Positions 7,297 through 63,180 of a stretch of 64,000 nt of DNA are shown here, piece by piece; position 1 is the first letter of the stretch, and each line of letters begins with the position of its first letter. This DNA is from Amoebophrya sp. A120. Taxonomy: Eukaryota > Protista > Dinoflagellata. The translations under genes and the position numbers were made by a program. The notes under the pieces are model-generated. The model ran no database searches. It was not told the origin of the DNA and saw nothing but the letters and a program-made list of their open reading frames with translations. Location: contig CAJINV010000003.1 in assembly GCA_905178155.1 (NCBI GenBank), positions 7,546,198 to 7,610,197 of the forward strand, in the 5' to 3' direction.

Positions 7297-7404
7297 TATA
7301 CACAAAAAAATACCCATCCCGATCCATTTTTTGCATGACATACACAGGACGTCATGCATGTTTTGCATGACAAACTCGATGGGGGTGAGTATTTTTTGTG
7401 GATA
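7297..7404. mobile_element. 108-bp MITE-like element of the TAT...ATA class, upstream of the Mei2-like ATG
   Basis: About 30-bp imperfect TIR (tatacacaaaaaaatacccatcccgatc vs reverse complement tatccacaaaaaatactcacccccatc), flanks AAAGA/AAAGG (4/5 TSD), internal GCATGACA motifs. Confidence 0.75.
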
Positions 7405-7877
7405 AAAGGCGACGAAATCGTACAGCAAATCCGCCAACATGTTGCAGAAAAAAGAAAAACGCTAGATGTGGGGCGGCCCGAGCTACGATGCCGCTTTCTA
7501 CTACAGGATTTGTACGAAGAAAAAGAAAACTCAGTTCGGCAATGATGCAAACGACGGGGCGACGAACGATTCGTAACTCTGCTCACGGCTTCCTACCGAC
7601 CTAGCTACCCGATCAAAGCAAATCACATTCGCTCGTAGACACGACTCTAGCATGCGTACTCGACTGACCTGATATAATTACAACACATCAACGAACACGG
7701 AAAGTCCGCGAGGAAATGACATTCTAGCTCGCGATTTCTTGTTGAGAATTTGAAGGAACACCAGCACAAGGATCAATCTCTGCTACTGCTCTGCAGCGGG
7801 GACATTCATCTACACGAAACAACGAGAAAAATTGCTTCATTTGTTGCTGCATTCGTCGTTGCTTGTCACTTTGTCAC

Positions 7878-9419
7878 TTACAGTAATTCAACCCTGTAGT
7901 CGAGCATTTCCCCTGCTCGAAAGGGAACTACGGCATGGTCCTTCCCTAGGATATCGTCGCCGAAAGTATCTGGGACGTAATTGATCTGCTTAAACAGCCG
8001 CATTTTTGGCCCTTCGTTTTTCGGGAAGCCGAAAAATTCAGCGCCGAAACGGCCGACAAAGTCCGGCAGCAGGTGAAGCCTCTGTGCCTGCGAAAAAATG
8101 TCCGCCAAGTATTGTATGACGAGCCCGCCAGTGAATACACCAGCAGCCGCTACCGCTGCCTCCTTTTTTGACCTCGGGTGCGGCGCACTGTCGCTGCCGA
8201 AGAAAAATTTCGGGTTGCCGCTAAAAACGACCTGCGATCATATTGCCATTGCGGTCAAGTATCAATCTTCACGTTCCATCGCGAAGGCACACGCTCATGT
8301 ACCTCCATGCGGTTCGGGCGGGTATCAATATTAAAGAGGAAGCAACGATTCTTTCATCAAGCTTAGCACAGTCACAATACCTCTCTGATTTTGTTTCGAT
8401 CGTGTGGTAGCTTCGGAATGGGCTTGCAGAACATGTGGCAGCAGCCAACCACTTGGTCGATGCAGATGTCGAGGTGGTGCGCCGTGACCGTGGCGGCCAC
8501 GTTATCCGGAGGAAAAACGTCCCCAACCCAGAGTCAAAATGATAGGGAATCGACTACACCAGCCTAGACGCTCACTCACTTTTTCGGAGTTGTGCATGAC
8601 AAGTTTCCATCCACAGTGTAGTGGTGGTTAGAAAATGAAGGCGCATGAGAGAGCCATATTCTCTTCCTGTTTACAGCATGTTACAAATCCCAAAACACTT
8701 TTGGAAATGCCTCTCATGGAGACGAGATGCACATTACAAATGTTCCAGCTCCTGTCATTCTTGTACATTTGCCTCAACACAACTCTGGGGTGGGGACGTT
8801 TCTCCACACGATACACGTTGGCTGGTAGGCTAAGCACGGTTTCCACTGCATCGCGGGTCGAAACATGCTCCAGCACGATTTTCAGGCGGGGAAACTCCTT
8901 GGCGAGGATCTGAAGCTCGCCTAAAAACATGGCTTCCGCCAGCATGACGCACTCGTTGGGCACTTCCCCGTGCAGGTGCAGCACCATCCCCAGCTCCTCC
9001 ATCTTCCGGAACACCGGGTAATACTGTTCGTAACTTTCCACGCCCGCATCGCTATTGGTCGTCACCCCGCGGGGGTAGCTCTTCACACCGGTGACGATCT
9101 TCTTCGCTTCGCCGGTGGTCGAGCACGTCACGACGCAATTAAAGGCCTTTTCGATTTCCTCGGGCGTGAGTTCGGGGCTGAGGTACAGCAAAATTTTATA
9201 ATCGATAGAGGGATCGATTTTGCTCAGTTCGTCGTAGTAGTCTAACGCCTTGGCCGTGTTGCTCACCGGCGGGATGGTATTTGGCATTACGATAACGCGC
9301 TGCACGCCGCTTTGTCGCAACAAGGGCACCACAACCCGACTCATGTCTCCCTGTCGCAAATGCACGTGCCAGTCATCCGCAAGCGGTAGCACTAAATCCT
9401 CCGTCGGTGCTGCGGCCAT
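7878..9419 (-). CDS. pyrC: Dihydroorotase (homodimeric PyrC/URA4 type), 3 exons
   Basis: Motifs DWHVHLR, VMPN, K.YP.GVTTNS, HLHGE, LEHVST, then ATVTAHHL...FCKP and FFFGSDSAPH in downstream exons. Intron 1 is non-canonical (element 8503-8813); intron 2 (8232-8380) is GT-AG. Confidence 0.95.
8503..8813. mobile_element. Introner element, family A (311 bp), non-canonical intron in dihydroorotase
   Basis: TSD CACGT at 8498-8502 and 8814-8818, about 32-bp imperfect TIR starting TATC. Removal gives LPAN-VAATVTAHHL in frame. Confidence 0.9.
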
Positions 9420-16194: not shown

Positions 16195-19100
16195 TCAAGT
16201 ATTCCCCGATTCCCGCCGGGTCTGGTACCTCTGGAAGGCGGCCATGACGTACTGGAGCTGCATAACCCGCCGAACCTGGGTTGCGATGTGAATGTACTGA
16301 ATCATGTCGCGAAGGTTATACCCTCCGATCGCTTTCACACGGTCGTAGTCCTCCCTCGTCAACGCCTCGGGAAAACAGCAAAGCTTCTTCAGAAACACCT
16401 TGTGCATCAGCGTCAAGTAGAAGTTCAACCTGCAAGTAGAAAAAAATATAAAATGGTCCTTTAACTTTGCACAAAAATAGACACCATCAGAACCGCCCGG
16501 AATTGCCAATTCCTAGAAGCACCTATTGCTATTCTTCCACCTCTTACAACTCCGTTGATTGCTTAGTATAGCAGTGGACGACCATGAACAAACAGTAAGC
16601 TAGCATAGAAGCGAAGGTAGATAGAACCCAACTCAAAAGAAAAACCTTGTGTAGTTAAAGTCGTCAACTTCTAGGCCGTAGACGCGAAAAACGTAGGCGA
16701 ACAGCGCTCGTCGAATCGGGAGCGTGGAACTGACCTTGATACCGCCGACGGAGGAGTCGGTGTAGCTCTGTACGTACTCGTACTCTTCGTGAATTGCGTC
16801 AGCGATCTCGGGACAGTACTGCCCTAGCAACGGGTACGCGTGATCAGCCCAGCTGTACTGTGACGCCGCAGACGCGGCACCGGCCCCATAGTCTACGTAC
16901 TTCAGCTTGAATGTTTCTGCGCCTTTTGTACCGACATCACTTGCGTCCTCAAGGCCCGTAAGCTCCACCCCACTCGCGCGCGCGAGCAGAAAATCGCATA
17001 GCGGCGCGCGAACGATCGGTCGCGCAGCCATCACTTCCTGCAGGGAATGCCGCTCCTCCTGAGTCAGCGCGTTGTCTGTCAGTCGCCCGAGCTCGCGCCA
17101 GTCCTTCTCGCTTTTTATGGGGTTCAGCAACTCTTGCTCCTCCTGCTTGGAGATGAAGTAGTACCTGTAATTTAATGATCACCAAGCAGAGAAGGGGAAT
17201 CGAAAGTTCATATGGAAATCAGTCCGACTCGTACGGAGCCGCCTCATAACACAGCCTTTGCAGCCAGTGCGTTGGTGGCAAGAATATCGGAGATGACCAC
17301 ACCTGACGCCACGCTTGGACGTCCAGAAAGCACCGAGAACACTGTGTGCTCGTCAAAGAACATCCAGCAAGCATGATAGTGATACTACCAGTTCGCGGAC
17401 TCGGAGAGATTTTTGCGGAAGCAGCAGGGCAGGTGGGCGAGCACCTGAGCTCGTTTGGGGTCCTCCAAAACGACGAGCCGGTGCTTTTCTTTGTCCCCGC
17501 CGCTGCTCGTGCTCTGGCGTTCGAGCGAGGTGAGGTCCTCTTCCTCCGACCGCGCCGTGGCAAAGCTCGCCGTTCGGTAGCTCTCTTTGTTGCTGGCGAC
17601 CATCACGGTTTTATTCTTACTCGTGTTGTTTTCATCCTCCTCTGCGACACCCGTGTCATCCGGCGGCTCCGGCTGCGCTTGCGGCGCGGGAGCTATGAGC
17701 GATACAGACTCGGGGGATATTTTTCCATCGGTGCTTCCGTCGGTAAGGATCCACTTTTCGTCCCCCGGTGCCAACGGGTCTTCGAGCTCTAGGCCGAGCG
17801 CGAACACAAACGCCGACATGGAATGGTAGGTACTCAGGATCGCCAGCGCCGACAGCAGCTCCGTGCTCGACCACCGGCAGGCTGAATCATCCGGGTCGAG
17901 CAGCTCGGCGAAACTCACGACCGCGGTGCCCCGGCTCCTGTCGTGTTTTTCGGGACTGTTTCCGTGAGACGGAGAGGTCGTAGTGCCCTCCCCGGTTTGC
18001 TCCAGCAGCAGCCAGGGCTGGTGGCACATCACTTCGTTGAACTTCGCGATCGCGAGTAATTTTTTCGGAATTACGTCGGCACGCCCCGCGAGCCAGGTGC
18101 GGTCACCTCCAGTAAAAATGAAGCTTCGCCTTGTAGTGGACATCACGACACATAACAAAAACACAGGATCGAATTCGTCGAACGAGTTCTTGGACAATGA
18201 CCAGCTACAGCTTTTTTTACGACGAGGCCAATCATAATCGTCTTAAATTGGCCTCAAAACGACGGCCTAAAAATTGCTGCTGAGTAGAAGGAGTAAACAA
18301 ACAACTACCTCCCACTAACAGGAACATTTCCGCCGCGTGCCGCGCAAGATACTCGCAGCGCAGTTGCGTGGCCCCCAGCAGCGCGAGGTAGTGCCGCCAC
18401 GGTTTCGGCAAAGGACCCTCGTCAAACAGGAGCGCGCGCTTCGAGGAGAAAAACCGGTCGAGGAAGCCGTCGTGGGCTGCAAGGGCCCAGTGCAGCGTCG
18501 TCAGGTTTCCATTCTTCTGCTGAAACAGGTCTTGCCAACTCGGGCTCCCGAAATCCACGGGAGGTTTCTCTGCCTCCCCTGACTGGTCAAAGGAAGAGCC
18601 GCTGTGTATCAAAAGGAAAAATCCCCCCACCCCATATCGAAATGGAAATCTGTGATGCGGGATTTGTGTACACAAATCGGCTTTGTATTGCAGGAATGCA
18701 TCGCGGCCACATCCCCAGGCTATGTAGGGGCGTATCGGTCTAGTTGTTCAGCACGGCAAACGGCTCCCCTTTAGGCCCAACAGCGTGACAAATCGCCTCC
18801 ATAATGGGGGCGAAGCTTTTGCCCTTGTCTTCTTGCAAGACAGATGCGATTTGTGACCTCAAATCAGCAAAGCAAATTTTCGGAAACATGCCTTTTCGAT
18901 ATGGGGAGGGGGGATTTTTCCTCACAATACTGTGCGAGCTCGCAGTTGGCGGATGCAGGAGCGCACTATCAAATGTAAAAATGTCTGGGTCTGAAAGAAT
19001 GCAAGATTTGTGATGCAGTTTTTCCATCATCATCATCATGTAGTGGACACCCTCTCCCAGCGCCACAGGTCAAGGATCCCCTCCCCGGGGGGTGGGCGAG

Positions 19101-19954
19101 GGAGCGCTTTCGGCAACCTCATCATACAAAAGCCGAGCGCTACCACGGCAAGTCGCCCCAAGAAAAGTGCCAACCAGTCGGGAGCTACCCACCACACCTG
19201 ATCAGTACAGCCCGGCCAGCTAGCCGAGCGCGACAGCCCAACATACAGAACGATCCAGGACCCGACCCATTTTACGCAATACGTTTTTGTTCTCACGGAA
19301 GAGACGACGTACCCCTTTGGGTTAAGGCGCGAGACTTTTCCATGACCCATGAGGCCTGGAATGCAGCATCTAGCATGACAAACGCTGTGACGTGTCTATC
19401 ATGCATATCCTGCATGAGAAACTCCCTGTCAAACTGATGAAAAGTGCACAGCTTTTGGTAATCATGCAACACAAATTTTTGCATGCTTCAGATTCAGCAT
19501 GACAAGTGGCATCCTTCCAGACCCAGACATTTTTGCATTTGATACGCACACCACTGGGAACACTTTTCCCGGACCTCAAGTTGGGGACTAAATTGCGCAA
19601 GCCGTCGCAGCCTGAAGAAAGAGTCACGACAGAAAATGGACTGCATATTGTGACGTCGTTTCCGCATATTTATAAGTAACTTGAACCTACGTAGAGCATG
19701 GAGTTCTTGACGACCCGAATAAGGGAACGTGAAACTACTTGGATGCTCTCGTCCCTCTCCGTTGCTAAAGACAAAAAACACCTGTTCCACAGACGAAACG
19801 CTTTTTCCCTTTCTTGTGGCTCAGTGGCGTGACTACTCTGAGCGAGGTGCTCGATCTCCTGGCCGAGGTTCTCGAAGCCTGCCGGCGTCTGGGAAGCGAG
19901 CAGAAACCCGACGTGCTCCACGGCGCAATCCAACAGTTTGTCGATGCCCTCCAT
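16195..19954 (-). CDS. SESN: Sestrin (PA26 family), multi-exon, with two introner introns
   Basis: GPLPKPWRHYLALLGA..C.YL, GGD.TWL.G, HQPWLL, WSSTELLSALAILSTYHS, YSWADHAYPLL, IRRALFAYV.RVYGLEVDD and C-terminal QLQYVMAAFQRY all match the sestrin consensus. Confidence 0.88.
18607..18929. mobile_element. Introner element, family B (323 bp), in sestrin
   Basis: TSD CTGTG (18602-18606, 18930-18934), about 36-bp TIR (tatcaaaaggaaaaatccccccaccccatatcgaaa). Homologous along its length to 62735-63055. Removal gives TASSHS-GSSFD in frame. Confidence 0.92.
18967..19544. mobile_element. Introner element, family C (578 bp), in sestrin
   Basis: TSD CGCAC (18962-18966, 19545-19549), about 50-bp TIR (tatcaaatgtaaaaatgtctgggtctg...). 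Same TIRs as 57374-57635. Removal gives CSQWCA-LLHPP in frame. Confidence 0.92.
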
Positions 19955-20696: not shown

Positions 20697-23600
20697 TTAG
20701 GCAGCCATATTCCACGTTTTGTCGTCGTAGATTGCCTTTAGCAACTCGTCCGTGCGCTTCGCAATATTCACCGGCTCGATAGCCAGGATTCGCGTCGCAG
20801 ATCGTGTATCGCCCTCGTAGGTTTCTTTGTATGACCGCAAGCGGAGCTTGTACAGCGAGGCTACCTGCCAGCTCTTGAACCATTCGTCCACTGTGATCTG
20901 CATTTCTGAGGCATCCTGAGCTGTCTTCCCAGCTGTTGTGACAAATTTCTTCAAGTACCATAGCAGTGGTCAGTCTGCCAGTGTCGATTGTCGAAGAAGT
21001 GCCTGCATCACAACTTTGTCCTTCACTTGACCACGAAAGGTGACTGCCAACAGGTCGGCGATACGTTGCTGCACTTTGCACATCAACAAACTACGCAACA
21101 TTATCAATATAAATCAGAAGAACGTACTGAGCTTCTTCATATCGTCGTCAAACAGGTTCAGAATGCTGTCGCCGAATCCGTCCTGAAATACTGCGCGGAC
21201 AAGCCATCGCTTGACGGGCGTGACGAGGCCGTGGGTGGGGCATACGCCGTCACGAACTTTCTTGTTGCAAGTGGCCGGAGGTGCGTTGGCAGGCGCATTG
21301 GCGCGGACGACCTTTTCTGGGCACGCTTCATACCATTGCGGAACTTCCTCGTCCTTGCGTTGCGTCAGGACGCGCATCATTCGCGCGTAGGCTTCGGTGA
21401 TGATAAACTGCTCTTTATTTTCCCCAGACGCAGGCTCGATCTCGTCGACCAACTCACCCAAGTTTACCTGTAATTTCAACGTGGGACTTTTCTCTGATCA
21501 GACTCTCACCTAGACCTATCTGTGGTACTGCTCACGCCTTGGCGCTGAAAGTTCGACCAAGCTAGCAATGGGCGTCACTTACCGTCGTTGCAGAAACGCC
21601 GCCACAGGCAAGAAGCAGTATAAAACTCCCACTGGCTGGTTCGTCTAGGTGGTGCAGTTGCAAATATCTAACTCAGGGGAGAGTGACCACGTGCATACCT
21701 GTCGCACTTGATTTCCACCTATTTGTCCCGCACCTGCTTCGCGCATAGACACAAATGCCTTCGATGAGCCCCCGCTTTTCCACCACTTTTCTATCTCTTT
21801 GCTGCGGTCCTGTTGTGAAAGATTTTTTTTGTGCAGTTGTGAAAGGGTGAAGTTGTTGCAACTGTATTTTCGGAATTATATAAGTGCACGAAGATGGTGG
21901 ATTGCCATTACATAAAAATCCATTCCCCTTCCAAGGATTGAACATCCCAAAGAAAAAAGCCGACAGGTCAGAAAAAAAATAATTAAATAATAATTGTTAT
22001 TGTCAACAATAAAAGCAAAACAAAACAACAAAAAAAATTGCCGCCATACCATGCGGATTAGCTTCAGGACAGATCAGCAATCCGCGCGAATCACGGTGGG
22101 ACTTTTTTTATTGTCAACAATAAAAGCAAAACAAAACAACAGGAAGAAAGTGCCGCCATACCATGCGGATTAGCTTCCGGGCAGATCAGCAATCCGCGCG
22201 AATCAGGGCGGGACGGTGATCGCCCGCCTTTTTTATTTTTGTGGCGAATTTCTCTTATTCGCGCCATACCGTGCGGGCTGGGGTTCGTAAGGGGTTGCCG
22301 GCTTCGCCAATCCGCATGGCACGGCGCCCGCAGTCGGCTTCGCGACTTTTTGCAGATTTTTTATGTTCGCGCCTTAGCGTGCGGGCCGGCTTTCTGGCGA
22401 AGCTGCCGGCTTCGCGAATCCGCACGGCACGGCGGCCGCAATTAGTTTTGTGAATTTTGGCGAGTTTTTTTGTTTCGCGTCATACCGTGCGGGCGGGGCT
22501 TCGTAAGAGTTTGCCGGAGTCGCCAATCCGCATGGCACGGCGCGCGCAGGCGGTTTTGCGACTTTTGGCGAATTTCCTATGTTCGCGCCATACCGTGCGC
22601 GCTGGCTTTCTGGCGACGCTGCCGGCTTCGCGAATCCGCACGCCACGGCGGCCGCAGTTATTTTTGTAAATTCTCGCGATTTTTTCCCTTTTGCGCTATA
22701 CCTTGCGGGCTGGGCTTCGTAGGAGGTTGCCGGCTTCGCCAATCCGCACGCTTGCCAGCTTTTCGACAATTCCCGAATATTCGGAATCGCCGGAATCAGA
22801 GGCGGCGAGACTTCAAATCCTTGCGAAGTTTTTCAACGCTTGGGAATGCCAAAAATGCGACCCCCGCCTCTATCTGCGGAAACTGACACACTTAAAGTAA
22901 CTTCATCCCCCTTCTGGAACTTTTTGCCGTCCGAGTTCGTCCGCGGATACTTTCGAATATTCGGAATCGCTTCAAAATAGGCAGGCAGGAGTTTGGAAAT
23001 TGTCGAAGGTTTTGCCAGCTTTTCGAATATTCCCGAATATTCGGAATCGCCGGAATCAGAGGCGGCGACCGAGGCTTCAAATCCTTGCCAAGTTTTTCAA
23101 CACTTGGGAACGCCAAAAGTGCGATCCCCGCCTCTATCTGCGGAAACTGACATACTCAAAATAAGTTGCTTCCTCTGCTGGGAATTTTTGCCGAGTTCGT
23201 CCGCGGATACTTTCGAATATTCGGAATCGCTTCAAAATAGGCAGGCAGGAGTTTGGTAACCGTCGAAAATGTTCCCGAATATTCGGAATCGCCGGAATCA
23301 GAGGCGGCGAGACTTCAAATCCTTGCCAAGTTTTTCAACACTTGGGAATGCCAAAAATGCGACCCCCGCCTCTATCTGCGGAAACTGACACACTCAAAAT
23401 AAATTACTTCCTCGGCTGGGAATTTTTGCCGAGTTCGTCCGCGGATACTTTCGAATATTCGGAATCGCTTCAAAATAGGCAGGCAGGAGTTTGGAAACTG
23501 TCGAAGGTTTTGCCAGCTTTTCGAATATTCCCGAATATTCGGAATCGCCGGAATCAGAGGCGGCGAGACTTCAAATCCTTGCCAAGTTTTTCAACAATTG

Positions 23601-26600
23601 GGAATGCCAAAAATGCGACCCCCGCCTCTATCTGCGGAAACTGACATACTCAAAATAAATTACTTCCTCTTCTGGAAATTTTTGCCGAGTTCGTCCGCGG
23701 ATACTTTCGAATATTCGGAATCGCTTCAAAATAGGCAGGCAGGAGTTTGGAAACTGTCGAAGGTTTTGCCAGCTTTTCGAATATTCCCGAATATTCGGAA
23801 TCGCCGGAATCAGAGGCGGCGAGACTTCAAATCCTTGCCAAGTTTTTCAACAATTGGGAACGCCAAAAATGCGACCCCCGCCTCTATCTGCGGAAACTGA
23901 CATACTCAAAGTAAATTACTTCCTCTTCTGGAAATTTTTGCCGAGTTCGTCCGCGGATACTTTCGAATATTCGGAATCGCTTCAAAATAGGCAGGCAGGA
24001 GTTTGGAAACTGTCGAAGGTTTTGCCAGCTTTTCGAATATTCCCGAATATTCGGAATCGCCGGAATCAGAGGCGGCGAGACTTCAAATCCTTGCCAAGTT
24101 TTTCAACAATTGGGAACGCCAAAAATGCGACCCCCGCCTCTATCTGCGGAAACTGACATACTCAAAGTAAATTACTTCCTCTTCTGGAAATTTTTGCCGA
24201 GTTCGTCCGCGGATACTTTCGAATATTCGGAATCGCTTCAAAATAGGCAGGCAGGAGTTTGGAAACTGTCGAAGGTTTTGCCAGCTTTTCGAATATTCCC
24301 GAATATTCGGAATCGCCGGAATCAGAGGCGGCGAGACTTCAAATCCTTGCCAAGTTTTTCAACAATTGGGAACGCCAAAAATGCGACCCCCGCCTCTATC
24401 TGCGGAAACTGACATACTCAAAGTAAATTACTTCCTCTTCTGGAAATTTTTGCCGAGTTCGTCCGCGGATACTTTCGAATATTCGGAATCGCTTCAAAAT
24501 AGGCAGGCAGGAGTTTGGAAACTGTCGAAGGTTTTGCCAGCTTTTCGAATATTCCCGAATATTCGGAATCGCCGGAATCAGAGGCGGCGAGACTTCAAAT
24601 CCTTGCCAAGTTTTTCAACAATTGGGAACGCCAAAAATGCGACCCCCGCCTCTATCTGCGGAAACTGACATACTCAAAGTAAATTACTTCCTCTTCTGGA
24701 AATTTTTGCCGAGTTCGTCCGCGGATACTTTCGAATATTCGGAATCGCTTCAAAATAGGCAGGCAGGAGTTTGGAAACTGTCGAAGGTTTTGCCAGCTTT
24801 TCGAATATTCCCGAATATTCGGAATCGCCGGAATCAGAGGCGGCGAGACTTCAAATCCTTGCCAAGTTTTTCAACAATTGGGAACGCCAAAAATGCGACC
24901 CCCGCCTCTATCTGCGGAAACTGACATACTCAAAGTAAATTACTTCCTCTTCTGGAAATTTTTGCCGAGTTCGTCCGCGGATACTTTCGAATATTCGGAA
25001 TCGCTTCAAAATAGGCAGGCAGGAGTTTGGAAACTGTCGAAGGTTTTGCCAGCTTTTCGAATATTCCCGAATATTCGGAATCGCCGGAATCAGAGGCGGC
25101 GAGACTTCAAATCCTTGCCAAGTTTTTCAACAATTGGGAACGCCAAAAATGCGACCCCCGCCTCTATCTGCGGAAACTGACATACTCAAAGTAAATTACT
25201 TCCTCTTCTGGAAATTTTTGCCGAGTTCGTCCGCGGATACTTTCGAATATTCGGAATCGCTTCAAAATAGGCAGGCAGGAGTTTGGAAACTGTCGAAGGT
25301 TTTGCCAGCTTTTCGAATATTCCCGAATATTCGGAATCGCCGGAATCAGAGGCGGCGAGACTTCAAATCCTTGCCAAGTTTTTCAACAATTGGGAACGCC
25401 AAAAATGCGACCCCCGCCTCTATCTGCGGAAACTGACATACTCAAAGTAAATTACTTCCTCTTCTGGAAATTTTTGCCGAGTTCGTCCGCGGATACTTTC
25501 GAATATTCGGAATCGCTTCAAAATAGGCAGGCAGGAGTTTGGAAACTGTCGAAGGTTTTGCCAGCTTTTCGAATATTCCCGAATATTCGGAATCGCCGGA
25601 ATCAGAGGCGGCGAGACTTCAAATCCTTGCCAAGTTTTTCAACAATTGGGAACGCCAAAAATGCGACCCCCGCCTCTATCTGCGGAAACTGACATACTCA
25701 AAGTAAATTACTTCCTCTTCTGGAAATTTTTGCCGAGTTCGTCCGCGGATACTTTCGAATATTCGGAATCGCTTCAAAATAGGCAGGCAGGAGTTTGGAA
25801 ACTGTCGAAGGTTTTGCCAGCTTTTCGAATATTCCCGAATATTCGGAATCGCCGGAATCAGAGGCGGCGAGACTTCAAATCCTTGCCAAGTTTTTCAACA
25901 ATTGGGAACGCCAAAAATGCGACCCCCGCCTCTATCTGCGGAAACTGACATACTCAAAGTAAATTACTTCCTCTTCTGGAAATTTTTGCCGAGTTCGTCC
26001 GCGGATACTTTCGAATATTCGGAATCGCTTCAAAATAGGCAGGCAGGAGTTTGGAAACTGTCGAAGGTTTTGCCAGCTTTTCGAATATTCCCGAATATTC
26101 GGAATCGCCGGAATCAGAGGCGGCGAGACTTCAAATCCTTGCCAAGTTTTTCAACAATTGGGAACGCCAAAAATGCGACCCCCGCCTCTATCTGCGGAAA
26201 CTGACATACTCAAAGTAAATTACTTCCTCTTCTGGAAATTTTTGCCGAGTTCGTCCGCGGATACTTTCGAATATTCGGAATCGCTTCAAAATAGGCAGGC
26301 AGGAGTTTGGAAACTGTCGAAGGTTTTGCCAGCTTTTCGAATATTCCCGAATATTCGGAATCGCCGGAATCAGAGGCGGCGAGCCTTCAAATCCTTGCCA
26401 AGTTTTTCAACGCTCGGGAATGCCAAAAATGCGACCCCCGCCTCTATCTGCGGAAGCTGACATACTCAAAATAAATTACTTCCCCTTCTGGAAATTTTTG
26501 CCGAGTTCGTCCGCGGATGCTTTCGAATATTCGGAATCGCTTCAAAATAGGCGGGGGTCGCATTTTTGGCATTCCCAAGCGTTGAAAAAGTTGGCGAGGG

Positions 26601-29094
26601 TTTGACGCCTCGCCGCCTCTGGTTCCGGCGATTCCGAATATTCGAGAATATTCGCAAAGCTGGCAAAACCTTCGACAGCCTCCAAGCCCCTGCCTGCCTA
26701 TTTTGAAGCGATGACTGCGATCGCCGTGCCGTGCGGATTCGCGACGCCGGCAACCTCTTGCGACCGCCAGCCCGCACGGTGTGGCGCAAAAGAAAAAAAC
26801 TCGCCAAAATTTACAAAACTAATTGCGGCCGCCGTGCCGCGCGGATTCGCGAAGCCGGCGACTTCGCCAGAAAGCAAGCCCGCACGCTATGGCGTGAACA
26901 AAGAAAATCCGCCAAAAGTCGCAAAACCGACTGCGGGCGCCGTGCCGTGCGGATTGGCGAAGCCGGCAACTTCTTACGAAGCCCAGCCCGAACGGTATGG
27001 CGCGAAAGGAAAAAACCCGACAAAATTTACAAAATTAATTGCGGCCGCCGTGCCGTGCGGATTCGCGAAGCCGGCAGCTTCGCCAGAAAGCCAGCCCGCA
27101 CGGTATGGCGCGAACCAAGAAAATTCGCCAAAAGTCGCAAAACCGACTGCGGGCGCCGTGCCGTGCGGATTGGCGAAGCCGGCAGCCTCTTACGAAGCCC
27201 AGCCCGCACGGTATGGCGCGAAAGAAAAAAAATCGCCAAAATTCACAAAATAAACTGCGGCCGCCTTTCCATGCGGATTTGCGAAGCCGGCAGGTTCGCC
27301 AGAAAGCCAGCCCGCACGCTATGGCGCGAACGGCGAAAATTCGCAAAAAGTCGCAAAGCCGACCGCGGACGCCGTGCCGTGCGGATTGGCGAAACCGGCA
27401 ACCCCATACGAAGCCCAGCCTGCACGGTATGGCGCGAAGCAAAAAACTCGCCAAAATTTAAAAAACTGACTGCGACCGCCGTGCCGTGCGGATTCGCGAA
27501 GCCGGCAGCTTCGCCAGAAAGCCAGCCCGCACGCTATGGCGCGAACAAAAAAAAACTGCAAAAAGTCGCAAAACCGACTGCGGGCGCCGTGCCGTGCGGA
27601 TTGGCGAAACCGGCAACCCCCTACGAAGCCCAGCCCGCACGGTATGGCGCGAATGGACGAAATTCGTCACAAAAATAAAAAAAGCAGGCGATCACCGTAC
27701 CGCCCTGATTCGCGCGGATTGCTGACCTGCCCTGAAGCTAATCCGCATGGTATTGCGGCAATTTATTCTTGTTGTTTTGTTTTGCGTTTATTGTTGACAA
27801 TAAAAGTCCCACCGTGATTCGCGCGGGTTGCTGATCTGTCCTGAAGCTAATCCGCATGGTATGGCGGCAATTTTTTTTGTTGTTTTGTTTTGCTTTTATT
27901 GTTGACAATAACAATTCTTATTTAATTATTTTTTTTCTGACCTGTCGGCTTTTTTCTTTGGGATATTGAAGCAACAGTGCGTAGTACGCCGGGCTTCCCC
28001 TTCTTTGGATCGACCAGAAATGCGCCGGTATCGTTGAACACGCCAGACCGGCCTTGAAACTCTTTCACCGCCACGCCCTTGAGCGCCACGATTTTTGGAT
28101 TCTTCTCGTCGACATACCCATCCTTGTTCAGCAAAGCCTCGCGCGGGTACTTTTTCGCAGTCTCGCCGAACACAGACACGTCCAGCTCCGTCTCGGTCTC
28201 GTCAACAACGGTAAACTGATACTTCGTGTACTGAACGCCGTTCTTTGTCCAGGTGCGGGTTTCCTCCACCTTGTTGACCACTCCGATCACGTCGATATTG
28301 CAGGGCAAGGGCCGGGTTCGCAGCTCCCGCAGGTTCGAAAAATCAAAGCTCGCAATGGTGCCGATACTGCCGTCATCCTCCACCGCTTCGACGACACTTC
28401 CGCCGTTGAACTGAATCTCATACTCGTGCTTCTGCTGGTTGTACGCTTTGTTCGCTACCTGACCATTCGCTTTTTGGTGCTGGTGTTTCCGCTTGCATTT
28501 TCACTCTTCCTAATCATCTTTTCGGAAACCGAAACCCTGCCAACACGTGTTGCACGTTAGGATTCGAGAGGTAGCAGGAAGAGGAACAGCTTTCTGTTCC
28601 GCATGCTTAAGTACGATATCTTGTTTTGAGGCCTCGAAATAGAAATACCACATTAGCTGTACCTTAACGAGGCCTTTGCTAAATTTGAAGACTTTCGGGG
28701 GCTCGACGAAGTTGAACTTTGTGACGGCGTCGTTGAAAAAGGATGCTCGAATCTCACCGCCGTCCTGGTCTATCAAGTCGACACTGAAAACCTGATCAGG
28801 AAATACAATTCCGACGCGTGTGCATCAGTCACACAAGAAAAGAGAAATCCGATGGAAGATCGCAAGCATCATCATACAAATTGGTTCTCCTTGATTTAGC
28901 CAAGCACAACGAACTAAGTAGATGGATCTGAAGATGCGAAAAAAGTGATATCTTACCTGTCCAGCGTTTTTCTGACCATCAGCTTGTTTCTTGTCCCAGG
29001 TTCGCGTCTGAGATCTCGTTAGCACCCGCGCACATATCGTCCAGTTCTTGTGGTAAGGAGTCACCTCCTCTATGGGGAAGTAGCCGTCGGGCAT
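20697..29094 (-). CDS. RPA1: Replication protein A large subunit (DBD-A, B and C), probably short form lacking the N-terminal domain
   Basis: PIEEVTPYHKNWTICARV..RSQTRTW, GEIRASFFN, IDVIGVV, IVALKGVAVKEFQGRS, WYEACP...CNKKV Zn region and ETYEGDTR C-terminus. Intron 21810-27987 (GT-AG) contains a 6-kb element. Confidence 0.92.
22240..22750. repeat. Left-arm ~108-bp subterminal repeats (alternating A/B, ~216-bp dimer), about 5 units
   Basis: Recurring cgccataccgtgcgggctgg...gccggcttcgc(c/g)aatccgca every ~108 bp; reverse complement of the right arm. Confidence 0.85.
22752..26550. repeat. 256-bp tandem satellite, about 15 units
   Basis: ORF track repeats at exactly 256-bp spacing (23342 to 26158). 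Central units look identical and edge units are diverged or partial. An inverted partial unit follows at 26551-26710. Confidence 0.97.
26715..27680. repeat. Right-arm ~108-bp subterminal repeats, about 9 units
   Basis: Recurring gccgtgccgtgcggatt(c/g)gcgaagccggca...cccgcacggtatggcgcgaa; inverted relative to 22240-22750. Confidence 0.88.
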
Positions 29095-30490: not shown

Positions 30491-30642
30491 CAGACTGTCG
30501 CCACCGTGCAGACGCGATGTGGTACCTAGGGATATGAAGATGATCAAGTAGTGTTTATGGGGCGTCTTTGCCGCGTATGCGTGGTAAATGCGACCAGCGT
30601 AATAAGTAAATTCATATACCAAATATAGCCGCCGGGGCGGGG

Positions 30643-53718: not shown

Positions 53719-54417
53719 CTCGAGTATGCAAGAACCAACTTCCTGCTAACGCTGAGAGCGCGACACGGGGTAGCGCACAAGTAGAACGAGCATGAGCTAA
53801 CCAGAGGTCGAAGTCCGCAGACCATTTGCAACTTTTGGACTCTGCCTAATACGGCTTCGAGTTCGATGAACGCAGAGGCAGACCACCGCCACCATTAAGA
53901 GCATTTATACTTATTCTCGGGGAGAAAACAAAGGCATGAGCCTGAACTAGAACTCCCGATCAAAAACATAAACATTGACATTCAGGATCTTCTTTATTCT
54001 TCTTGACGCAGCTTCACGATAAAGTTTTTCAAACCGAGACCAACCGATCGACAAACGATCTTGCTTTCGTGTTCCGTCGCATGAAAGGCACATGGCCGAC
54101 AACCAAGTCGATGCACGCTTGCGAGATGGCGATGTCGAAATGCCATGGCAGCTGTATGTTGCATCGCCGAACCTTCCGTTCGCCCATGTCAAAATTGTTA
54201 CATAAAACTCCTTGGTGTCCAACAAGACTGCTGGTGGAGCAGTTGTACAACAGACGGCACACAGCAGTCGCGCTCGCGATCGTTTTTCACTATATCGCCA
54301 AGGAAGAGGGACGGCTTTGGTGTTATCAACACGATTCTCGCAGTGCTTTCCCGGCACAAGGAAAGCTTTGACTATGGTGTGAAAAAATCTTACTGGTGAT
54401 GCTTCTACATTGATGTC

Positions 54418-55099
54418 TCATTTCAGTTTACTCAGATCGGCGGCACAGTCAGCGGGCGGTGTACCGGAAAACGAAGGCTCTTTCTGCAGGAAGACGTCAC
54501 AAGAATCAGCCCACACGAGCCCCATGCAATTGGAAATCCACCAGCTGGGGCCCCACATGGAAAAGTAACTGCTTTTTAGCGGGCGAACGATCAAGTCCAA
54601 CATCAGCAACCCCGTAAGTCCCCCGAATGCAAAAAGCCGCACCGCATCGCACTGGTACTTGAACTCCACATACCTAGGCAGTGGAATAGACAAGTTCCCC
54701 TATGATTGAGAATCCGAAAAACGCGGTTGCTCAACGAAATTAATCTAACTAAACAAACGAAGATGCAGGCATCGCAATTTCACCTCGCGCCGAATCAACA
54801 AGCAATTTGGAGGTAGGTACGTCATTGCCGGATGCGTGAAAAATCTCTGGGCGGCTTGCATGGAACTTGTGACATCGAGAATGTCCTTACCCCGCTTCGC
54901 AGTACCTGGACGGAGGAACAATTGTAGGTATACTTCATACATCCAAATAAATCGTCCCTCTTTTTCATTGCTGTGAGGTACTTACACTTCTAGTTCTGGC
55001 TTTCTTTGCTGAGATCCGCTATTGTAAGCAGGTATTACCCAGCGCTCGCGACTGGACTCGGGTGGCCTGCAGGGTTCTTCTTGTGAACGTCGAGAACAT
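54418..55099 (-). CDS. Small putative mitochondrial membrane protein, 3 exons
   Basis: Presequence-like MFSTFTRRTLQATRVQSRALG; GT-AG joins give FFTHPAMTYVEFKYQCDAVRLFAFGGLTGLLMLDLIV with one TM segment. Confidence 0.6.
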
Positions 55100-55690
55100 C
55101 CTTTCGAATGCTATTCTTCTTATTCGCTAAAGGCTGTACAGGTTGACAAGCAAAAACAAAAACGATTGCATCGCTTTACTTCCTCAGCTTTAGCTGGAAA
55201 AATCATTTCATTCGCGAAAAAAAACAATCCTTTTTCGGTAAAATAGCACAACAACAGCCTCCTAAAAACTCGGACTTCCAACCTCACTCGCTCCAGACAG
55301 TGACAGTCCCTCCCCTCCACTTCCCCTCTTTGAACACATCCTCGCTGCCTCTGTAGAAAAATCGCTTTACAATGGCGCAGCAACGCCCTGTTCATCAAAG
55401 ATGCATGCTGCGGTGCCACTGTGCATTATCTCGAGTTCATTTCGTGATTTCTTGGTTGTACTTGTAGTCAGCAGGGTTTTTCATTTGCACGGAGGGACGA
55501 AAAGGGCCTACCGTGTATTCACATGCCGTTCCGTCACATGGACATGAAGACAAGCGAGCACTGTATTCTCACACGTAGACAGGAATGCGCTGAAAAGGCG
55601 CTCCCGCAAATCAAAGCAAATCACCATCCACCTACAGACGGTAGTGGTCTTCTATGTATGAAGTAGGTCGTCACACACCCCGCCCTCGCC

Positions 55691-57728
55691 TTAGAGCGGA
55701 GCGCCTGCAGGGGACGACGCACTGGCCTCATCCAGACCACTTGCAGACGTGCCTAAAGGCCGGACCTCGCGACGTTCGGTGGCTATGCGATCGCCAGTGA
55801 GAAGAGGAAACTGTCCGTCCTCGGGCCGCGCCAACGTCTCTCTGCACACGGGGCAGTTTGATCCCCCGAAAGATGCCCACTTCTCCAGGCATTCGCGGTG
55901 GAAGACGTGCGTACATGGCGCTTCGCCAACCTCGTGTCCCGCCTCAAGTTCCTGCAAGCAAATGCTGCAGTTCTCACCGTGCGCAGGGTCGGACTCACTC
56001 AGCTTGTAGGTCACACACCGACTCAAAGTTTGGGCCACGCTCCGGGCGCTCCTTCCCCGCGTGTCGCCCCGGAGTATTTGTCGCCGAAAGACGTGCAGCA
56101 CAACTGATTTGATTGTATCTTGGTTAGATATTACGCACTGGCAGGTACAAAACCACAGAAACGTAAACCTCGTGATGTTGCATTGTTCATCTACGAAAAA
56201 AAGACAATGTGAGGCGAGTTTCTTCGACAGTCTAAAAAAATGGAAGACAAAAAGTACACGGCGCACAACACGGGAGACAGGGAAGGCAACCGCAAATCGC
56301 AATGAGCAGAAGGGCGGGCACGAGGATTTGGAGGACGACGAGACCGGACACGATGTAGAATAGTAGCCAGGGCACAACGCCACGTCCTGGCAGCTCGTCG
56401 TCGTAGACTTGCCACGGCATCCACCTCGAAAAGACCACTGCAGTCGCCACGTACGCCACAAAAAAAAACCAACTTAGGCTGCAGAAACTGAGGAGGTTCA
56501 CACGGTTAATGTTGTGCAAAAGCCTTGCTTTGCAGAGAGACACCAGTCCCATAAAGGCCGACAAGAAGAACACGAGGAGCACGTGCCGGAGGTAGAAGTT
56601 CTGCAGGGGCCCGAGAAGTAAGTAGGCGGGCCCAGTCACGGGCGTTTCAGGCCGAATCAGGTGGAGATAACAAACGTCTCTTGTGCTTTGCTTCAGCGTA
56701 GTAGGAGCTGTCCGTGCTTTCGCAGCTGATAGCAGGGCGTCAGACTCTTCTTTCGAGAGACTGCGGGGCGGCTCCGCAATCAGCTGCGGCTTGCCGTGAC
56801 TGAAAGCTGTACTTCCTGGTGGTGCGGCTCCCAAGGTGGCCGAGGAAGCATATTCCCACATGCTCTCTGCATGTGGGACATCACCACCATCGTCCTGGCG
56901 AAGGCGCGCTGGTGCAGCGGAAAGACGGCGAGAGGAAGCGTCTGCACGGTCAGGCTTCGTCCGCTCTTCCGCTGTCGTAATCCCAAGTTTCCGCCACACA
57001 TCACCTACTCCACCTCTCTGCGACGAGGTGGATGCGGGTGGGCGAGCATCATTTACGCCCTGGCCTTGCAACTGAAATACGGCTGGATTCAGGGGTATGC
57101 GTCCAATCGCATAAAAGTCCGCGAGGCTGCTCGCAGATCTAGATCCGGCAGCTGCTCGACGCAGGTTCGCACTGGTGCCGCCGCCTGCTTCGACCTGGTT
57201 CTCTACCGCAGCTGCCGCCTTTTGCAGGGACAACAGGCCCTGCGCTGCGGAAGCTGGCAACGGGGGCGGCGTCGTGTTGGGATCGAACGGCACCAAGCAT
57301 TTGTCCGCCGGAAATTCCCACCAGAGGATGAAACACCAGACAAAAAAGAAGCTGTACGTCAGGGCACCCATGTTATCAAGTGTAAAAATGTCTGGGTCTG
57401 GAAGAGTGCGAACTTGTCATGCAGATTTTACATGGCCCGTGACGTCTGCGATGTATTCCCTGGCATCACAGATTTTCTGGGTGCTTCTTGATGCCTATTC
57501 CGCATGACAAATGGCCTCCCCGCGTAGCAGAAACTGGGCTCCTCTTGCTGGTCATGCAATACAGATTTTTCTAGAGTCCAAAATTAGCATGACAAACTTG
57601 CATTCTTCCAGACCCAGACATTTTTACATTTGATACATGTGCTGCGGCTGCAACTCGCATATCTGTTCTGGCTGATTCAATGGTGGCAGAGGTTCCGCCC
57701 TCCTCAAACCGGAAGACCAAGAGGACAT
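55691..57728 (-). CDS. Multi-pass membrane RING-H2 E3 ubiquitin ligase
   Basis: CSICLQEL...PCTHVFHRECLEKW...CPVCR and several TM helices upstream. The first intron is element 57374-57635. Confidence 0.8.
57374..57635. mobile_element. Introner element, family C (262 bp)
   Basis: TSD CATGT (57369-57373, 57636-57640), about 50-bp TIR matching 18967-19544. Removal gives LQPQHM-GALTY in frame from ATG 57728. Confidence 0.9.
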
Positions 57729-60060: not shown

Positions 60061-63000
60061 TTAACATGCAAATGGTACTACAACTCCTGAAAACAATGTG
60101 GATGCAGCTTGTTTTTTGTTACACTTCCTAAATTTATCACAGATTAGCGGGCCATATTGAATCCAGCGAATTTCTGCTTCGCACTGCTTTCTTCGACGTC
60201 TTTCCCGGGCGTACTCCTTCTTCAAAGCTTCGATTTTTGCCTCCATGGTATGTGTCTTACCCTCATCAAAGTCAACAGCAACACAGTAGAGTTTCGCAGA
60301 TACTAAACATGGCTTCTATTTCGAAAAACCTAGACTACTTGTTTCGTGATGCTACCGGTCCCACAAGCACAAATAGCGCGGTGGATGAGGTTTGCCTTTG
60401 GTGATGAGGACCGCATGGAAGCGAGGATAAAGATGATATTTGTATTTCCTCAAGGTGGCATATATCACGATTATCCGGATTTGACCAAAAACGACAAAGA
60501 GCCCGTCCGCAGGGGCTTCATCAAGTCAGGAGAAAATCCCCCTTCCCTCTTGCTCATTTATCACCGTCCTGCTTTGCTGCAGGCGCTTTTGCTCGAGGTG
60601 CTGCTCTAGAGCGAAAATTAACGATCAGCGTGGACGAAATTTTCTCGGAACGAAGCTGCAATTGTAAATGACGAATGAACAGTTCAACATCACTTGATTC
60701 GTGACAGATATGTAAAAAAATCCGAAGCCCAGGCAGTTTGATCCCGCCCGTCACCACTTTTTTCTGCTGAGTGTTATCTCAAAAATTCCATAGATGGAGA
60801 GCCTGACAATGGAGACGCCGCGCGGCCGTTTTGCTTTTCGCGGAGGTGCGCCAAAAAAGGCTCTTCCGACGCACTCACAAGCTCGTAATTTCTGCCGTGG
60901 CGCGGAGGCGGCTGGCCCGGGGTACCCCGTGCTAGGTGCTCCAAGGCCTCCTCCTCCCGACGCTCCGTCTCACGCCGAACGCGCAACTTCTGCACGGGAC
61001 ACGTGGCAAACTCGAGTTCCGCCGTTTCCAGGGAATACAGCAGCTTCAGGTCCTGTTCGCGCAGGCCTCCCGGTGACGCAGGCCCCAGCTGCTTCCCGCG
61101 CACGCCGCCGCGCAGCTGTTCGCGCTCCCGCGTGCGAAATTTCCGATCCACATGCTCGAGTCCTCCGCCACGAGGGGAGGTCGGACTGCCCCGGGAACCG
61201 CCCCGCGTGCCCTGCTTGTCGCGACCGCCCGCTTGGCTTGCGCTGCTCGTGGACGCTGTTCCCGCTCGTCCAGCTGTTATAAACAAGTCGCACCGGCCTC
61301 GAAGAAGTTAACTTCACAACAAAAAAGTAACAATGTCGTGTTATAATCTCGGAAACAAAAACTACCTCGAACATAAACAAAAAAAAAAAAGGAATGCCTC
61401 AAGTACACTTGTTTTCAAGCATCCGATTGGCCTCTTGAATCTCAGGTAGCTTCTGGTGTCGGTGGCTTTTTCGCAGCCGGTCCAGCAAATCCCGTAAGCG
61501 TTGGACCTGCAGTTGGAATAAAAGAACGCATGTGATGCTGGTAGTAGTTGGCATAAAAGAACGCACCTCCTTCCAGTAAATGAAACTACTATCATGTCGA
61601 CGATATGCGCAGCGAAGACCAAAAATTTCATATCACCTCCTCTTCCGCGAGGACACGCAGCTTGGTTTCGGTGCTGAGGTTTCGCGTCAGCAGCGCCTTT
61701 GCCTTGTCCAGGGATTGCAGTTTCCTCACAATTTTCTCGACGCGGCGCTGCCGACCCTGTGTGCTGGGATCCCCGGCCGCCGCATCCTTCCGCTGGTCCT
61801 CCGCCACTGCGTTGACGTCTCGACTGATGTCTTCTTCACTGCCGTCACTCTTGCCGCGTCCCCCGGTCCGATCCGCATCGATTCGCTTCTTCAGAGCGTA
61901 GTTGTCCGTTTCGAACTTCTTCGCTTTCTCCTTGAGCTTCTCCTTCTTGCGAAGAACCACGGCAAGCCTCAACTTGTGGGCCGCGACTTCCACTAGTAGC
62001 TGCTTCACGCGGAGCTCGTTCTCGCGCTTCTGCTGTTCCGTGAAAGATACTGCGGTGCCGTAAAAGATGCTCTCCTCCAACAGATCCGCGGCGCCCTCCT
62101 CTAACCCGCCGGTCCGGTAGCCAGCGCCACCGCCGCCGCCCCGCTGCGAGGTCCCGCGCGGTCCGTTCCCTGACGCTAAGTTCTGACCCTGTGTTGTTTT
62201 TTACCCGAGGGAATAAACTGTGTGACTCTACTGGCTAAGTACTCCCACGAGAACGAGGGGGACCGTATGTGTTTTTTAGTTTTGAGGCTTATTAATTGTT
62301 CAGAAAAGTCTTGCGCACAAAACTTGCTCTCGCAGCTACCCCCGAGAACCTGAAGATGTTGAGGCATCGATGTTGAGTACGTCATTTTGGAACGCCGCGC
62401 CGGCGGTCGAAGAAGAGCTTCCACCTGCTGCTCCTGCTGTCCCGTCGCGCGCCTGCGCCGTAGGTGGTGGGGCGGAGTCACCACCCGCAGGCTTTACTTC
62501 CGCCAAAATGCCCTTCATTGCAAGTTCCCAGTGCTCGGAAGTCAGGTGTAGACCTCGAACGCAGGTGCTTATGTCATCTGCGGTACAAAGCCGAAACTGC
62601 AGCAGGCGTATGAACATCGTCGACAGTTCCTCTTTCAGCTTTGCTTCCCGGTCCTGCGACTTCCGGAGCCCGTGCGTGAGGTGTTCGATATTCGTGTTCA
62701 AGGTCTTTACCTCCTTTGCATGCTCCTTCTCCTTTATCAAAGGGAAAAATCCCCCCTCCCCATATCGAAACGAAGTTTCTGATGCTGGATTTGCGTACAC
62801 AAATCAGGTCTGTCTTGCTGGAGAGGACTGCAGGCATATGCTAGCCTGGGTCGAGAGGTTTTGACGTAGGGGACTAGCATGACAGATGTCGGCTCTGTAA
62901 GCCCAACAGCATCACAAACCGCCGGCATAGTGCGGCCTGACTCTCTGGCTCTGCCTTCTTGCAAGACAGACAGGATTTGTGACCTCAAATCTGCATCACA

Positions 63001-63180
63001 AATTTTCAGACGAGTGCGTTTTCAATATGGGGAGGGGAAACTTTTCCTCTCAATATCCTTCTGAGAATCCACACTGCCCGCAAGTGCCGACCCAGCGGCG
63101 TTACTTCTTGTCTTATCCACCCCTGCCGACCCAGCAGACCCAGAAGCCCGCCCGGGCGCAGCTGCGGCTACACTTCGCAT
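60061..63180 (-). CDS. Multi-exon coiled-coil protein, unknown function (3' end uncertain)
   Basis: ATG 63180 frame joins across element 62735-63055 (SVDSQK-EKEHAKEV); further charged helical exons with GT-AG boundaries. Confidence 0.6.
62735..63055. mobile_element. Introner element, family B (321 bp)
   Basis: TSD TCCTT (62730-62734, 63056-63060); TIR and interior homologous to 18607-18929. Confidence 0.92.

What the first reader, a model, noticed from the sequence alone, without database searches (positions are those of the whole stretch)
7297..63055. One insertion signature (TAT...ATA ends, TIRs, 5-bp TSD) creates non-canonical introns across unrelated genes
Seen: 11 elements at 7297, 8503, 18607, 18967, 21943, 37558, 41066, 41448, 42897, 57374 and 62735, of at least four sequence families. 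They share TAT...ATA termini (one left end reads CAT, one end is eroded) and a 5-bp flanking direct repeat that differs at each site. Nine sit in coding exons. Deleting the element plus one repeat copy restores the frame, including conserved motifs (dihydroorotase NVAATVTAHH, FN3 LSLSWTP). No GT...AG register exists within any of the repeats. Established: IR/DR-bearing non-canonical introners are reported in Amoebophrya, and their mobiliser and splicing route are unresolved to my knowledge. Inference: a single transposase making 5-nt staggered cuts mobilises all families, and the host removes them at RNA level without a 3' AG.
Basis: partly seen in the sequence, partly recalled or inferred. 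Interest (0 to 1): 0.9.

Follow-up and report, generated by a model that had tools for sequence, protein, structure and literature searches.

The report
Known transposon-made introns of Amoebophrya
These are the already published jumping-DNA introns of a marine parasite of algae: short elements with matching ends that sit inside genes and are missing from spliced transcripts where tested, likely moved by one still unidentified enzyme and likely cut out by a relaxed form of the normal splicing machine.

Summary
The elements are real: 7 pass a strict scan against a mean of 0.11 in 100 shuffles. They match the published introner elements of Amoebophrya sp. A120: TAT + 7 nt + AAA ends, 5-bp direct repeats, about 29,850 copies (PMC7789003). 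One A120 family is already labelled 'Ginger, 5-bp TSD, TA/TA termini' (PMC12130899 supplement).

The 6-kb element is not removed at its own ends; it lies in an ordinary GT-AG intron.

Three additions, not found in my searches:
(1) In 71 related loci the repeat is a perfect 5 bp in 173 of 292 TIR pairs (4 bp in 4, 6 bp in 1), with no splice-site bias.
(2) A subterminal motif, TGT[CG]ATGC, is shared by 23 of 28 sequence clusters, which favours one mobiliser.
(3) One eroded copy fixes the splice register: 1 nt before TAT and 4 nt after ATA, giving N-TA, like this genome's GTA donors.

No transposase was found. Verdict: already known, with useful leads.

The parts
8503..8813 (-). introner in dihydroorotase exon; perfect 5-bp repeat; family shared with 41448
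   Evidence: homolog alignment extends past the junction only in frame; no RNA laid here
18607..18929 (-). introner in sestrin (PA26) gene; perfect repeat; family shared with 62735 (73%)
   Evidence: public protein P0124 contains the joined form
18967..19544 (-). introner in sestrin gene, 37 bp from the previous one; family shared with 57374
   Evidence: P0124 contains the joined form
37558..37757 (-). eroded introner with 3/5 repeat; the RNA joint removes 37554-37758, i.e. 1 nt before TAT to 4 nt after ATA on the sense strand
   Evidence: joint in 4 of 4 runs, no sliding possible; register worked out
41066..41375 (-). introner in the large EF-hand-containing gene; perfect repeat, 56-bp TIR
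   Evidence: contig length fits removal
41448..41727 (-). young introner in the same gene; TIR 30/32; high-copy family
   Evidence: contig length fits removal
42897..43093 (-). eroded introner in the same gene; perfect repeat, one end reads TGT
   Evidence: contig length fits removal
57374..57635 (-). introner in RING-finger gene; perfect repeat; strong terminal hairpin (z -7.0)
   Evidence: X4 contig continues at 57641
62735..63055 (-). introner in a coding exon; perfect repeat; has a GA..AG register
   Evidence: frame evidence only
7297..7404 (.). 108-bp near-palindromic element, 4/5 repeat, no coding frame recovered
   Evidence: 80% like L044 copy
21943..27965 (.). 6,023-bp foldback-like element with long TIR arms and internal 108- and 256-bp tandem arrays; perfect repeat; no Pfam-recognised ORF; ends match a 171-bp family 25/28
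21810..27987 (-). canonical GT-AG intron (6,178 nt) of the RPA1-like gene that contains the 6-kb element
   Evidence: loose ends in 4 of 4 runs, mapped; P0121 has the same join
5727..5885 (-).

Best explanation
These are Amoebophrya A120-type introner elements: non-coding TAT..ATA inverted-repeat elements that duplicate 5 bp of target, are absent from spliced transcripts where tested, are likely moved by one integrase-family DDE transposase, and are likely removed by a relaxed major spliceosome. Step 1 (shown): insertion duplicates 5 bp of essentially random target. Step 2 (inferred): a transposase of the Ginger/IS3EU-GingerRoot type acts in trans; it recognises the TAT-N7-AAA ends and repeated subterminal TGT[CG]ATGC sites and cuts the target with a 5-nt stagger. 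Step 3 (shown for 2 elements directly, 3 by length): element plus 5 nt is removed from the RNA, which restores the original exon. Step 4 (shown for one copy, generalisation inferred): the intron starts at the last base of the upstream repeat (N-TAT) and ends 4 nt into the downstream repeat. Step 5 (inferred): the TIR supplies the +2 U and +3 A of this genome's GTA donors, +1 G and the 3' AG are dispensable, and the 3' site is set by distance from the paired TIR.
For: Identity: two window proteins are 100% identical to NCBI proteins named Amoebophrya sp. A120, and the end grammar matches Farhat section 11 and the Fig. S19 legend. TSD: 173 of 292 TIR-paired candidates, found without using the repeat, have a perfect 5-bp repeat; 4 have a 4-bp and 1 a 6-bp repeat. 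A coding-like open frame results in 168 of 235 when element+5 is removed, against 62-77 for +3, +4, +6 or +7. Contigs of run X5 diverge into many flanks at exactly the TAT/ATA boundaries. Shared motif: 224 of 250 elements and 23 of 28 clusters carry TGT[CG]ATGC, peaking 30-50 nt from each end and reading inward; the top 8-mer is in 21 of 28 cluster representatives against at most 6 in 100 shuffles. Mobiliser class: A120 fam38 is labelled 'Ginger, 5-bp TSD, TA/TA termini'; IS3EU/GingerRoot have TA..TA ends. Splicing: joint 37553-37759 in 4 of 4 runs; 57373 joined to 57641; a 1,708-nt contig gap equals the exon sum with three elements removed, and the gene reads 1,600 codons without a stop. All 16 RNA-supported GT-AG introns begin GTA.
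Against: No transposase ORF in 17 element ORFs scanned. Farhat et al. found no putative transposase in A120 and argued against general transposase-mediated mobilisation. The exact motif is absent from the 6-kb element, 37558, 42897 and 5 of 28 clusters. The register rests on one element in two samples of one study, and the tool marks that joint 'between: not known'. A codon-based test of the register on imperfect repeats was inconclusive: 14 of 26 and 4 of 10. Mismatches at repeat positions 2-5 are mostly synonymous (14 of 23, p about 0.001 against neutral), which may mean the register slides, as Farhat's Fig. 3 legend states. U1 snRNA was not detected in these genomes. Nothing here tests the spliceosome directly. 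The runs are only guessed to be RNA by the tool; I treat them as RNA because they join 14 listed GT-AG introns.
Confidence: 0.55

Rival explanations
1. Same transposon origin, but removal is spliceosome-independent: a hairpin-guided nuclease and ligase, as proposed for euglenid nonconventional introns.
For: No base bias in the repeat: the base before TAT is A 52, G 41, C 29, T 24 of 146. A young copy folds strongly, z -7.0. U1 snRNA not detected. Euglenid TIR/TSD introns leave full-length circles (review).
Against: The eroded 37558 copy folds no better than shuffles (z 0.09) yet is removed in 4 of 4 runs. Its cut sites are asymmetric about the hairpin (-1/+4) and give N-TA like the GTA donors. 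At repeat position 5 the intron-side copy is G in 7 of 12 mismatches against 1 of 12 on the other side (p 0.07, weak). Fritillaria TIR/TSD introns are spliceosomal (review).
Confidence: 0.25
2. Several unrelated transposases converge on similar ends; there is no single mobiliser.
For: Gozashti et al. assign A120 introners to several TE classes, including a Mutator family with an 8-9 bp TSD. The 6-kb element and the 171-177 bp family lack the exact motif.
Against: Among TAT..ATA elements the repeat length is uniform, positions 11-14 are 87-95% A over 500 ends, and 23 of 28 clusters share the motif. The Mutator family has GG/CC ends and is a different class.
Confidence: 0.25
3. TGT[CG]ATGC is an RNA-level splicing signal (protein site or branch point) kept by selection, not a transposase site.
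For: Its reverse complement lies about 40-55 nt before the 3' end on the sense strand in several window elements.
Against: It occurs in both orientations at both ends and internally, also in the non-exonic 7297 element. It is degenerate in two old copies that are still removed (37558, 42897).
Confidence: 0.15
4. The joined forms are reverse-transcriptase template-switching artefacts at direct repeats with hairpins.
For: Such artefacts are favoured by direct repeats and secondary structure (PMC4176328).
Against: The 37558 joint lies outside the 3 bases its two repeats share, so it uses no microhomology, and that copy has no strong hairpin. Retention gives stop codons in 9 of 10 exonic elements, including dihydroorotase.
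Confidence: 0.03
5. The elements are excised precisely from DNA before expression.
For: Precise removal of element plus one repeat resembles ciliate-type excision (recalled, not from a call).
Against: Run X5 contigs run unbroken and without differences through 37558 (37400-41094) and 42897 (41705-57398). X5 may be the window's own source, and contigs drop rare variants.
Confidence: 0.02

Closest known systems
Amoebophrya sp. A120 introner elements (Farhat et al. 2021, PMC7789003)
   Same: TAT + 7 nt + at least 3 A ends, direct repeats (5 bp in the Fig. S19 legend), non-canonical borders, RNA-supported removal, co-oriented genes; window proteins identical to A120-named proteins.
   Different: The paper reports repeats of 3-5 nt and variable splice positions, limits intron analysis to 40-1000 bp, and in its main text has no hit for 'subterminal'. 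Here the repeat is 5 bp when measured from TAT/ATA, a shared internal motif is found, and one register is fixed. Figures were not visible to me.
A120 introner family 38, 'Ginger' (Gozashti et al. 2025, PMC12130899)
   Same: TIR element, '5-bp TSD, TA/TA termini', ORFs with LTR-retrotransposon homology likened to Ginger integrase-type transposases.
   Different: It is 808 bp with 5 copies. In the rows I read (parts 15 and 17 of 33, plus search hits) most other A120 families are 'TIR DNA, Unknown' with mixed automated TSD lengths. I did not see its sequence, so its link to the window's families is untested.
IS3EU/GingerRoot DNA transposons (PMC6839031, PMC10045372)
   Same: TA..TA termini, TIRs, integrase-related DDE enzyme, little target preference.
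   Different: The TSD is usually 6 bp, not 5; no enzyme was found here; not reported as introns in the passages read.
Ginger2/TDD
   Same: 4-5 bp TSD per PMC10045372 (6 bp per PMC6839031); integrase-related enzyme.
   Different: Termini are TG..CA, not TA..TA.
Fritillaria borealis and euglenid non-canonical TIR/TSD introns (review PMC11282704)
   Same: MITE-like origin, TIR and TSD at borders, no GT-AG.
   Different: Fritillaria has preferred AG-AC/AG-AT borders; euglenid introns give circles by an unknown route. Here the repeat shows no base preference.

Membership tests
Amoebophrya A120 introner elements | Inverted repeat starting TAT, about 7 free bases, then at least 3 A | tested here: met
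   15 of 22 window ends match the pattern TAT-N6..8-AAA; positions 11-14 are 87-95% A over 500 ends
Amoebophrya A120 introner elements | 3-5 nt direct repeat at the borders | tested here: met
   perfect 5 bp in 9 of 11; 173 of 292 in related loci
Amoebophrya A120 introner elements | Removed from RNA at non-GT-AG borders | tested here: met
Amoebophrya A120 introner elements | Repeated in families across the genome | tested here: met
   8 of the 10 short elements cluster with copies in L001-L071; 37558 and 42897 are singletons
Amoebophrya A120 introner elements | Host is Amoebophrya | tested here: met
   P0121 and P0124 are 100% identical to window frames and named Amoebophrya sp. A120 by NCBI
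IS3EU/GingerRoot | TA..TA termini | tested here: met
IS3EU/GingerRoot | 6-bp TSD | tested here: not met
   6-bp repeat in 1 of 292, 5-bp in 173 of 292
IS3EU/GingerRoot | Integrase-related DDE transposase in autonomous copies | tested here: inconclusive
   no DDE/rve hit in 17 ORFs from long copies; whole genome not available
Ginger2/TDD | TG..CA termini | tested here: not met
   ends are TAT..ATA (the loci scan required TAT/ATA); one eroded window end reads TGT
Ginger2/TDD | 4-5 bp TSD | tested here: met
Major (U2) spliceosomal introns | GT..AG borders | tested here: not met
   0 of 11 window elements; 7 of 146 related copies, equal to chance; the fixed junction is CT..GC
Major (U2) spliceosomal introns | Lariat intermediate and dependence on U2/U6/Prp8 | not testable with these tools
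   the one raw-read run laid (X7) gave 0 reads on the stretch

The most novel reading that the evidence does not exclude
All TAT..ATA introner families of this genome are one MITE system moved by a single undescribed integrase-family transposase, between Ginger2 and IS3EU/GingerRoot (TA ends, 5-bp TSD), that binds TGT[CG]ATGC repeats. The host spliceosome reads them by a ruler fixed to the TIR (-1 before TAT, +4 after ATA), needing only +2 U and +3 A. The repeat length and the ruler add up to scarless removal at any target sequence, so any exonic insertion becomes a perfect intron.
Probability: 0.3. Interest if true: 0.75.

Novelty: already known. Interest (0 to 1): 0.36.

Why it matters
The elements are published, so the observation itself adds little. 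How they move and how they are spliced remain open in the papers I read. The three additions turn those questions into direct tests. The shared motif is a probe for finding the autonomous element and for binding assays. The -1/+4 register predicts the junction at every intron whose two repeats differ. The lack of target bias says the 3' splice site cannot be read from sequence. If the ruler model holds, it would be an AG-independent way to define a 3' splice site and would explain how one transposon class could add tens of thousands of introns without harming proteins.

Tried and rejected
No whole genome was held, and the metagenome records behind L001-L071 could not be searched as genomes, so no genome-wide scan or transposase search was possible.

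No RNA holder was on record.

In the window 6 of 9 exonic copies have G before TAT (p 0.018). This suggested selection for GT donors, but it was rejected in the larger set (41 of 146). AG at the -1/+4 acceptor is not enriched either (15 of 146).

The codon-likelihood test of the register was inconclusive. Farhat's Table S4, where all nine predominant A120 motifs have T at +2, fits the register but is not counted as evidence, because an aligner's preference inside ambiguous repeats could produce it.

Pfam on 17 ORFs (6-kb element, 578-bp element, 30617 repeat, 2,861-bp copy in L065) gave no transposase. A viral-contig scan with the end grammar gave 2 hits without TIR partner or repeat, judged chance. 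The 6-kb element's 25-nt terminus had no exact match in the 71 loci. No sister-strain ortholog was recovered for sestrin, so empty sites in A25 were not tested. Three look-ups of earlier findings returned nothing. My note of '24 of 28 clusters' was a miscount; one search gives 23.
Full report
OBSERVATION. All 11 elements are present. Nine have a perfect 5-bp flanking repeat; 7297 has 4/5 and 37558 has 3/5. TIRs run from about 23 bp (eroded 42897) to several hundred bp (21943). A strict scan (TAT..ATA, perfect 5-bp repeat, at least 13/20 TIR identity) finds 7 in the window, against mean 0.11 and maximum 1 in 100 dinucleotide shuffles. Blastn groups the 11 into three pairs and five singles. A 12th copy lies at 5727-5885.

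HOST AND GENES. All genes examined are on the minus strand. They include dihydroorotase, sestrin, an RPA1-like OB-fold protein, an EF-hand-containing protein and a RING protein. Two window frames are 100% identical to NCBI proteins named Amoebophrya sp. A120. Removing element plus one repeat reopens the frame at 9 of the 11 sites. For dihydroorotase, 115 homologs align past the junction only in frame: median 241 bits for +5, 237 for +2, 239 for +8, and 197-199 out of frame. Homology therefore fixes the frame but only weakly the exact length. The public sestrin protein P0124 contains both joined junctions; that is an annotation, not my RNA check.

RNA EVIDENCE. The run search listed 9 runs, none of the holders on record as RNA. 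I laid 6 of them on two stretches. X1-X4 (two samples, one study) join 14 listed GT-AG introns, so I treat them as spliced RNA. Element 37558 is skipped in 4 of 4 runs at 37553-37759 with no sliding possible. After 57373 an X4 contig continues at 57641. One X1 contig has 1,708 nt between 40005 and 43094. That equals the exon sum with 41066, 41448 and 42897 each removed with one repeat, and the resulting gene reads 1,600 codons without a stop; the joint table was cut (116 rows hidden), so these three are shown by length only. The 6-kb element is different: contigs of all four runs stop at 27987 and continue with 21779-21808, which is a 6,178-nt GT-AG intron containing the element. Run X5 is unbroken through 37558 and 42897 and splits into many flanks exactly at TAT/ATA of the high-copy families; it may be the window's own source. 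X7 gave no reads.

LARGER SAMPLE. One TIR used as a pattern fetched 71 metagenome loci, 304 kb, none overlapping the window's unique sequence. Of 292 TAT..ATA pairs found by TIR alone (this set includes false internal pairings), 173 have a perfect 5-bp repeat and 39 have one mismatch; a 4-bp repeat occurs in 4 and a 6-bp repeat in 1. A second pass that did use the repeat gave 240 elements. Of these, 179 had a confident coding strand (61 dropped) and 146 of those a perfect repeat. Their repeats show no splice-site bias: the base before TAT is A 52, G 41, C 29, T 24, and 7 of 146 have any GT-AG register against 6.9 expected. So 'no GT..AG register' in the window is simply what random targets give.

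SHARED MOTIF. TGT[CG]ATGC occurs 21 times in 2,890 bp of the window's 10 short elements (8 of 10) and 5 times in the other 54,382 bp, one of these inside the missed 12th element. Among 250 elements in 28 clusters it is in 224 elements and 23 clusters, with a peak 30-50 nt from each end reading inward. Because I chose the motif after looking, I compared the most widely shared 8-mer: 21 of 28 representatives, against at most 6 in 100 shuffles. Clusters are threshold-based, so some singletons may be diverged members of larger families. Repeated subterminal sites are what a transposase binds in many TIR systems (recalled); that role is inferred here.

SPLICE REGISTER. At 37558 the two repeats differ, so the joint can be placed. 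Of six registers only one predicts 37553-37759: the intron starts one base before TAT and ends four bases after ATA (CT..GC). All 16 RNA-supported canonical introns begin GTA (14 listed joints, 1 by length, 1 by loose end), so this register keeps +2 U and +3 A and frees +1. Limits: this is one element; a codon test on 36 repeat mismatches was inconclusive; and synonymous enrichment at repeat positions 2-5 could mean sliding registers. The young 57374 copy folds strongly (z -7.0) but 37558 does not (z 0.09), so a strong hairpin is not needed for removal.

WHAT IS KNOWN. Farhat et al. 2021, PMC7789003 (abstract, sections 11, 12, 16, passages, supplement passages and part 3 of 5; figures not visible) describe A120 introners whose IR starts TAT, has seven free bases and then at least three A. 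They count 29,850 copies in 1,954 families, show 5-bp repeats in the Fig. S19 legend, detect no U1 snRNA and find no transposase in A120. Gozashti et al. 2025, PMC12130899 (passages; supplement searches and parts 15 and 17 of 33 of file 8; files 13-14 not searched) describe A120 family 38 as TIR-flanked with LTR-retrotransposon homology, and their table labels it 'Ginger, 5-bp TSD, TA/TA termini'. IS3EU/GingerRoot have TA..TA ends with 6-bp TSDs, and Ginger2 has TG..CA ends (passages of PMC6839031 and PMC10045372). A 2024 review (PMC11282704, section 6 and passages) treats the Amoebophrya splicing route as open. PMC4176328 (passages) is cited for template switching. Roy et al. 2023 and Henriet et al. 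2019 were seen only as references or through the review. I found no report of the motif or of the -1/+4 register in searches. These cover open-access text only, and Farhat's logos (Figs 3, S19-S25), which I could not see, may already show both.

VERDICT. The finding is a true and well-read instance of a published system, so it is already known. The single-mobiliser idea is partly in print and gains indirect support here; the enzyme is still missing. The spliceosomal ruler model is my best reading at about 0.55 for the whole chain, while identity with the A120 introners is near certain. Interest 0.36.

Noticed in passing
window 5727-5885: A 12th TAT..ATA element, with a 4/5 repeat, in a coding frame; related to the 171-177 bp family (L066:2435-2605, L043:2760-2936).
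   Followed up: partly
window 21943-27965: Foldback-like element with about 500-bp TIR arms of 108/216-bp repeats around a 99% homogeneous 256-bp array (12.8 copies). Its outer 28 nt match a 171-bp family 25/28, so it looks like an expanded member of that family. The array copy number could be an assembly matter.
   Followed up: partly
window 49273-49611: A 339-nt GT..TG intron joined in X1 and X4, with no TIR or TAT ends seen.
   Followed up: partly
window 30617-31321: A different repeated element inside the canonical intron 30526-31668. It begins TAC, has several flanks in contigs and an 89% copy in L048; no 5-bp repeat was found.
   Followed up: partly
L065:3001-5861 and L020:3504-4710: Long copies (2,861 and 1,207 bp) with perfect repeats that carry similar internal cargo by eye; no Pfam transposase in the L065 ORFs.
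   Followed up: partly
L001-L071: Mismatches between the two repeat copies pile up at positions 1 and 5 (17, 7, 7, 4, 12 over 43 elements; p 0.02). Those at positions 2-5 are mostly synonymous and those at position 1 are not. Unexplained.
   Followed up: partly
window 1-64000: All genes examined lie on the minus strand, and all 16 RNA-supported GT-AG introns begin GTA.
   Followed up: partly
window 63798-64000: A 19-bp GC-rich tandem array running off the window's end.
   Followed up: no
window 18967-19544 and L034:3001-3388: A 112-bp internal piece is shared at 95% between members of two different families, suggesting a nested insert or exchange.
   Followed up: no
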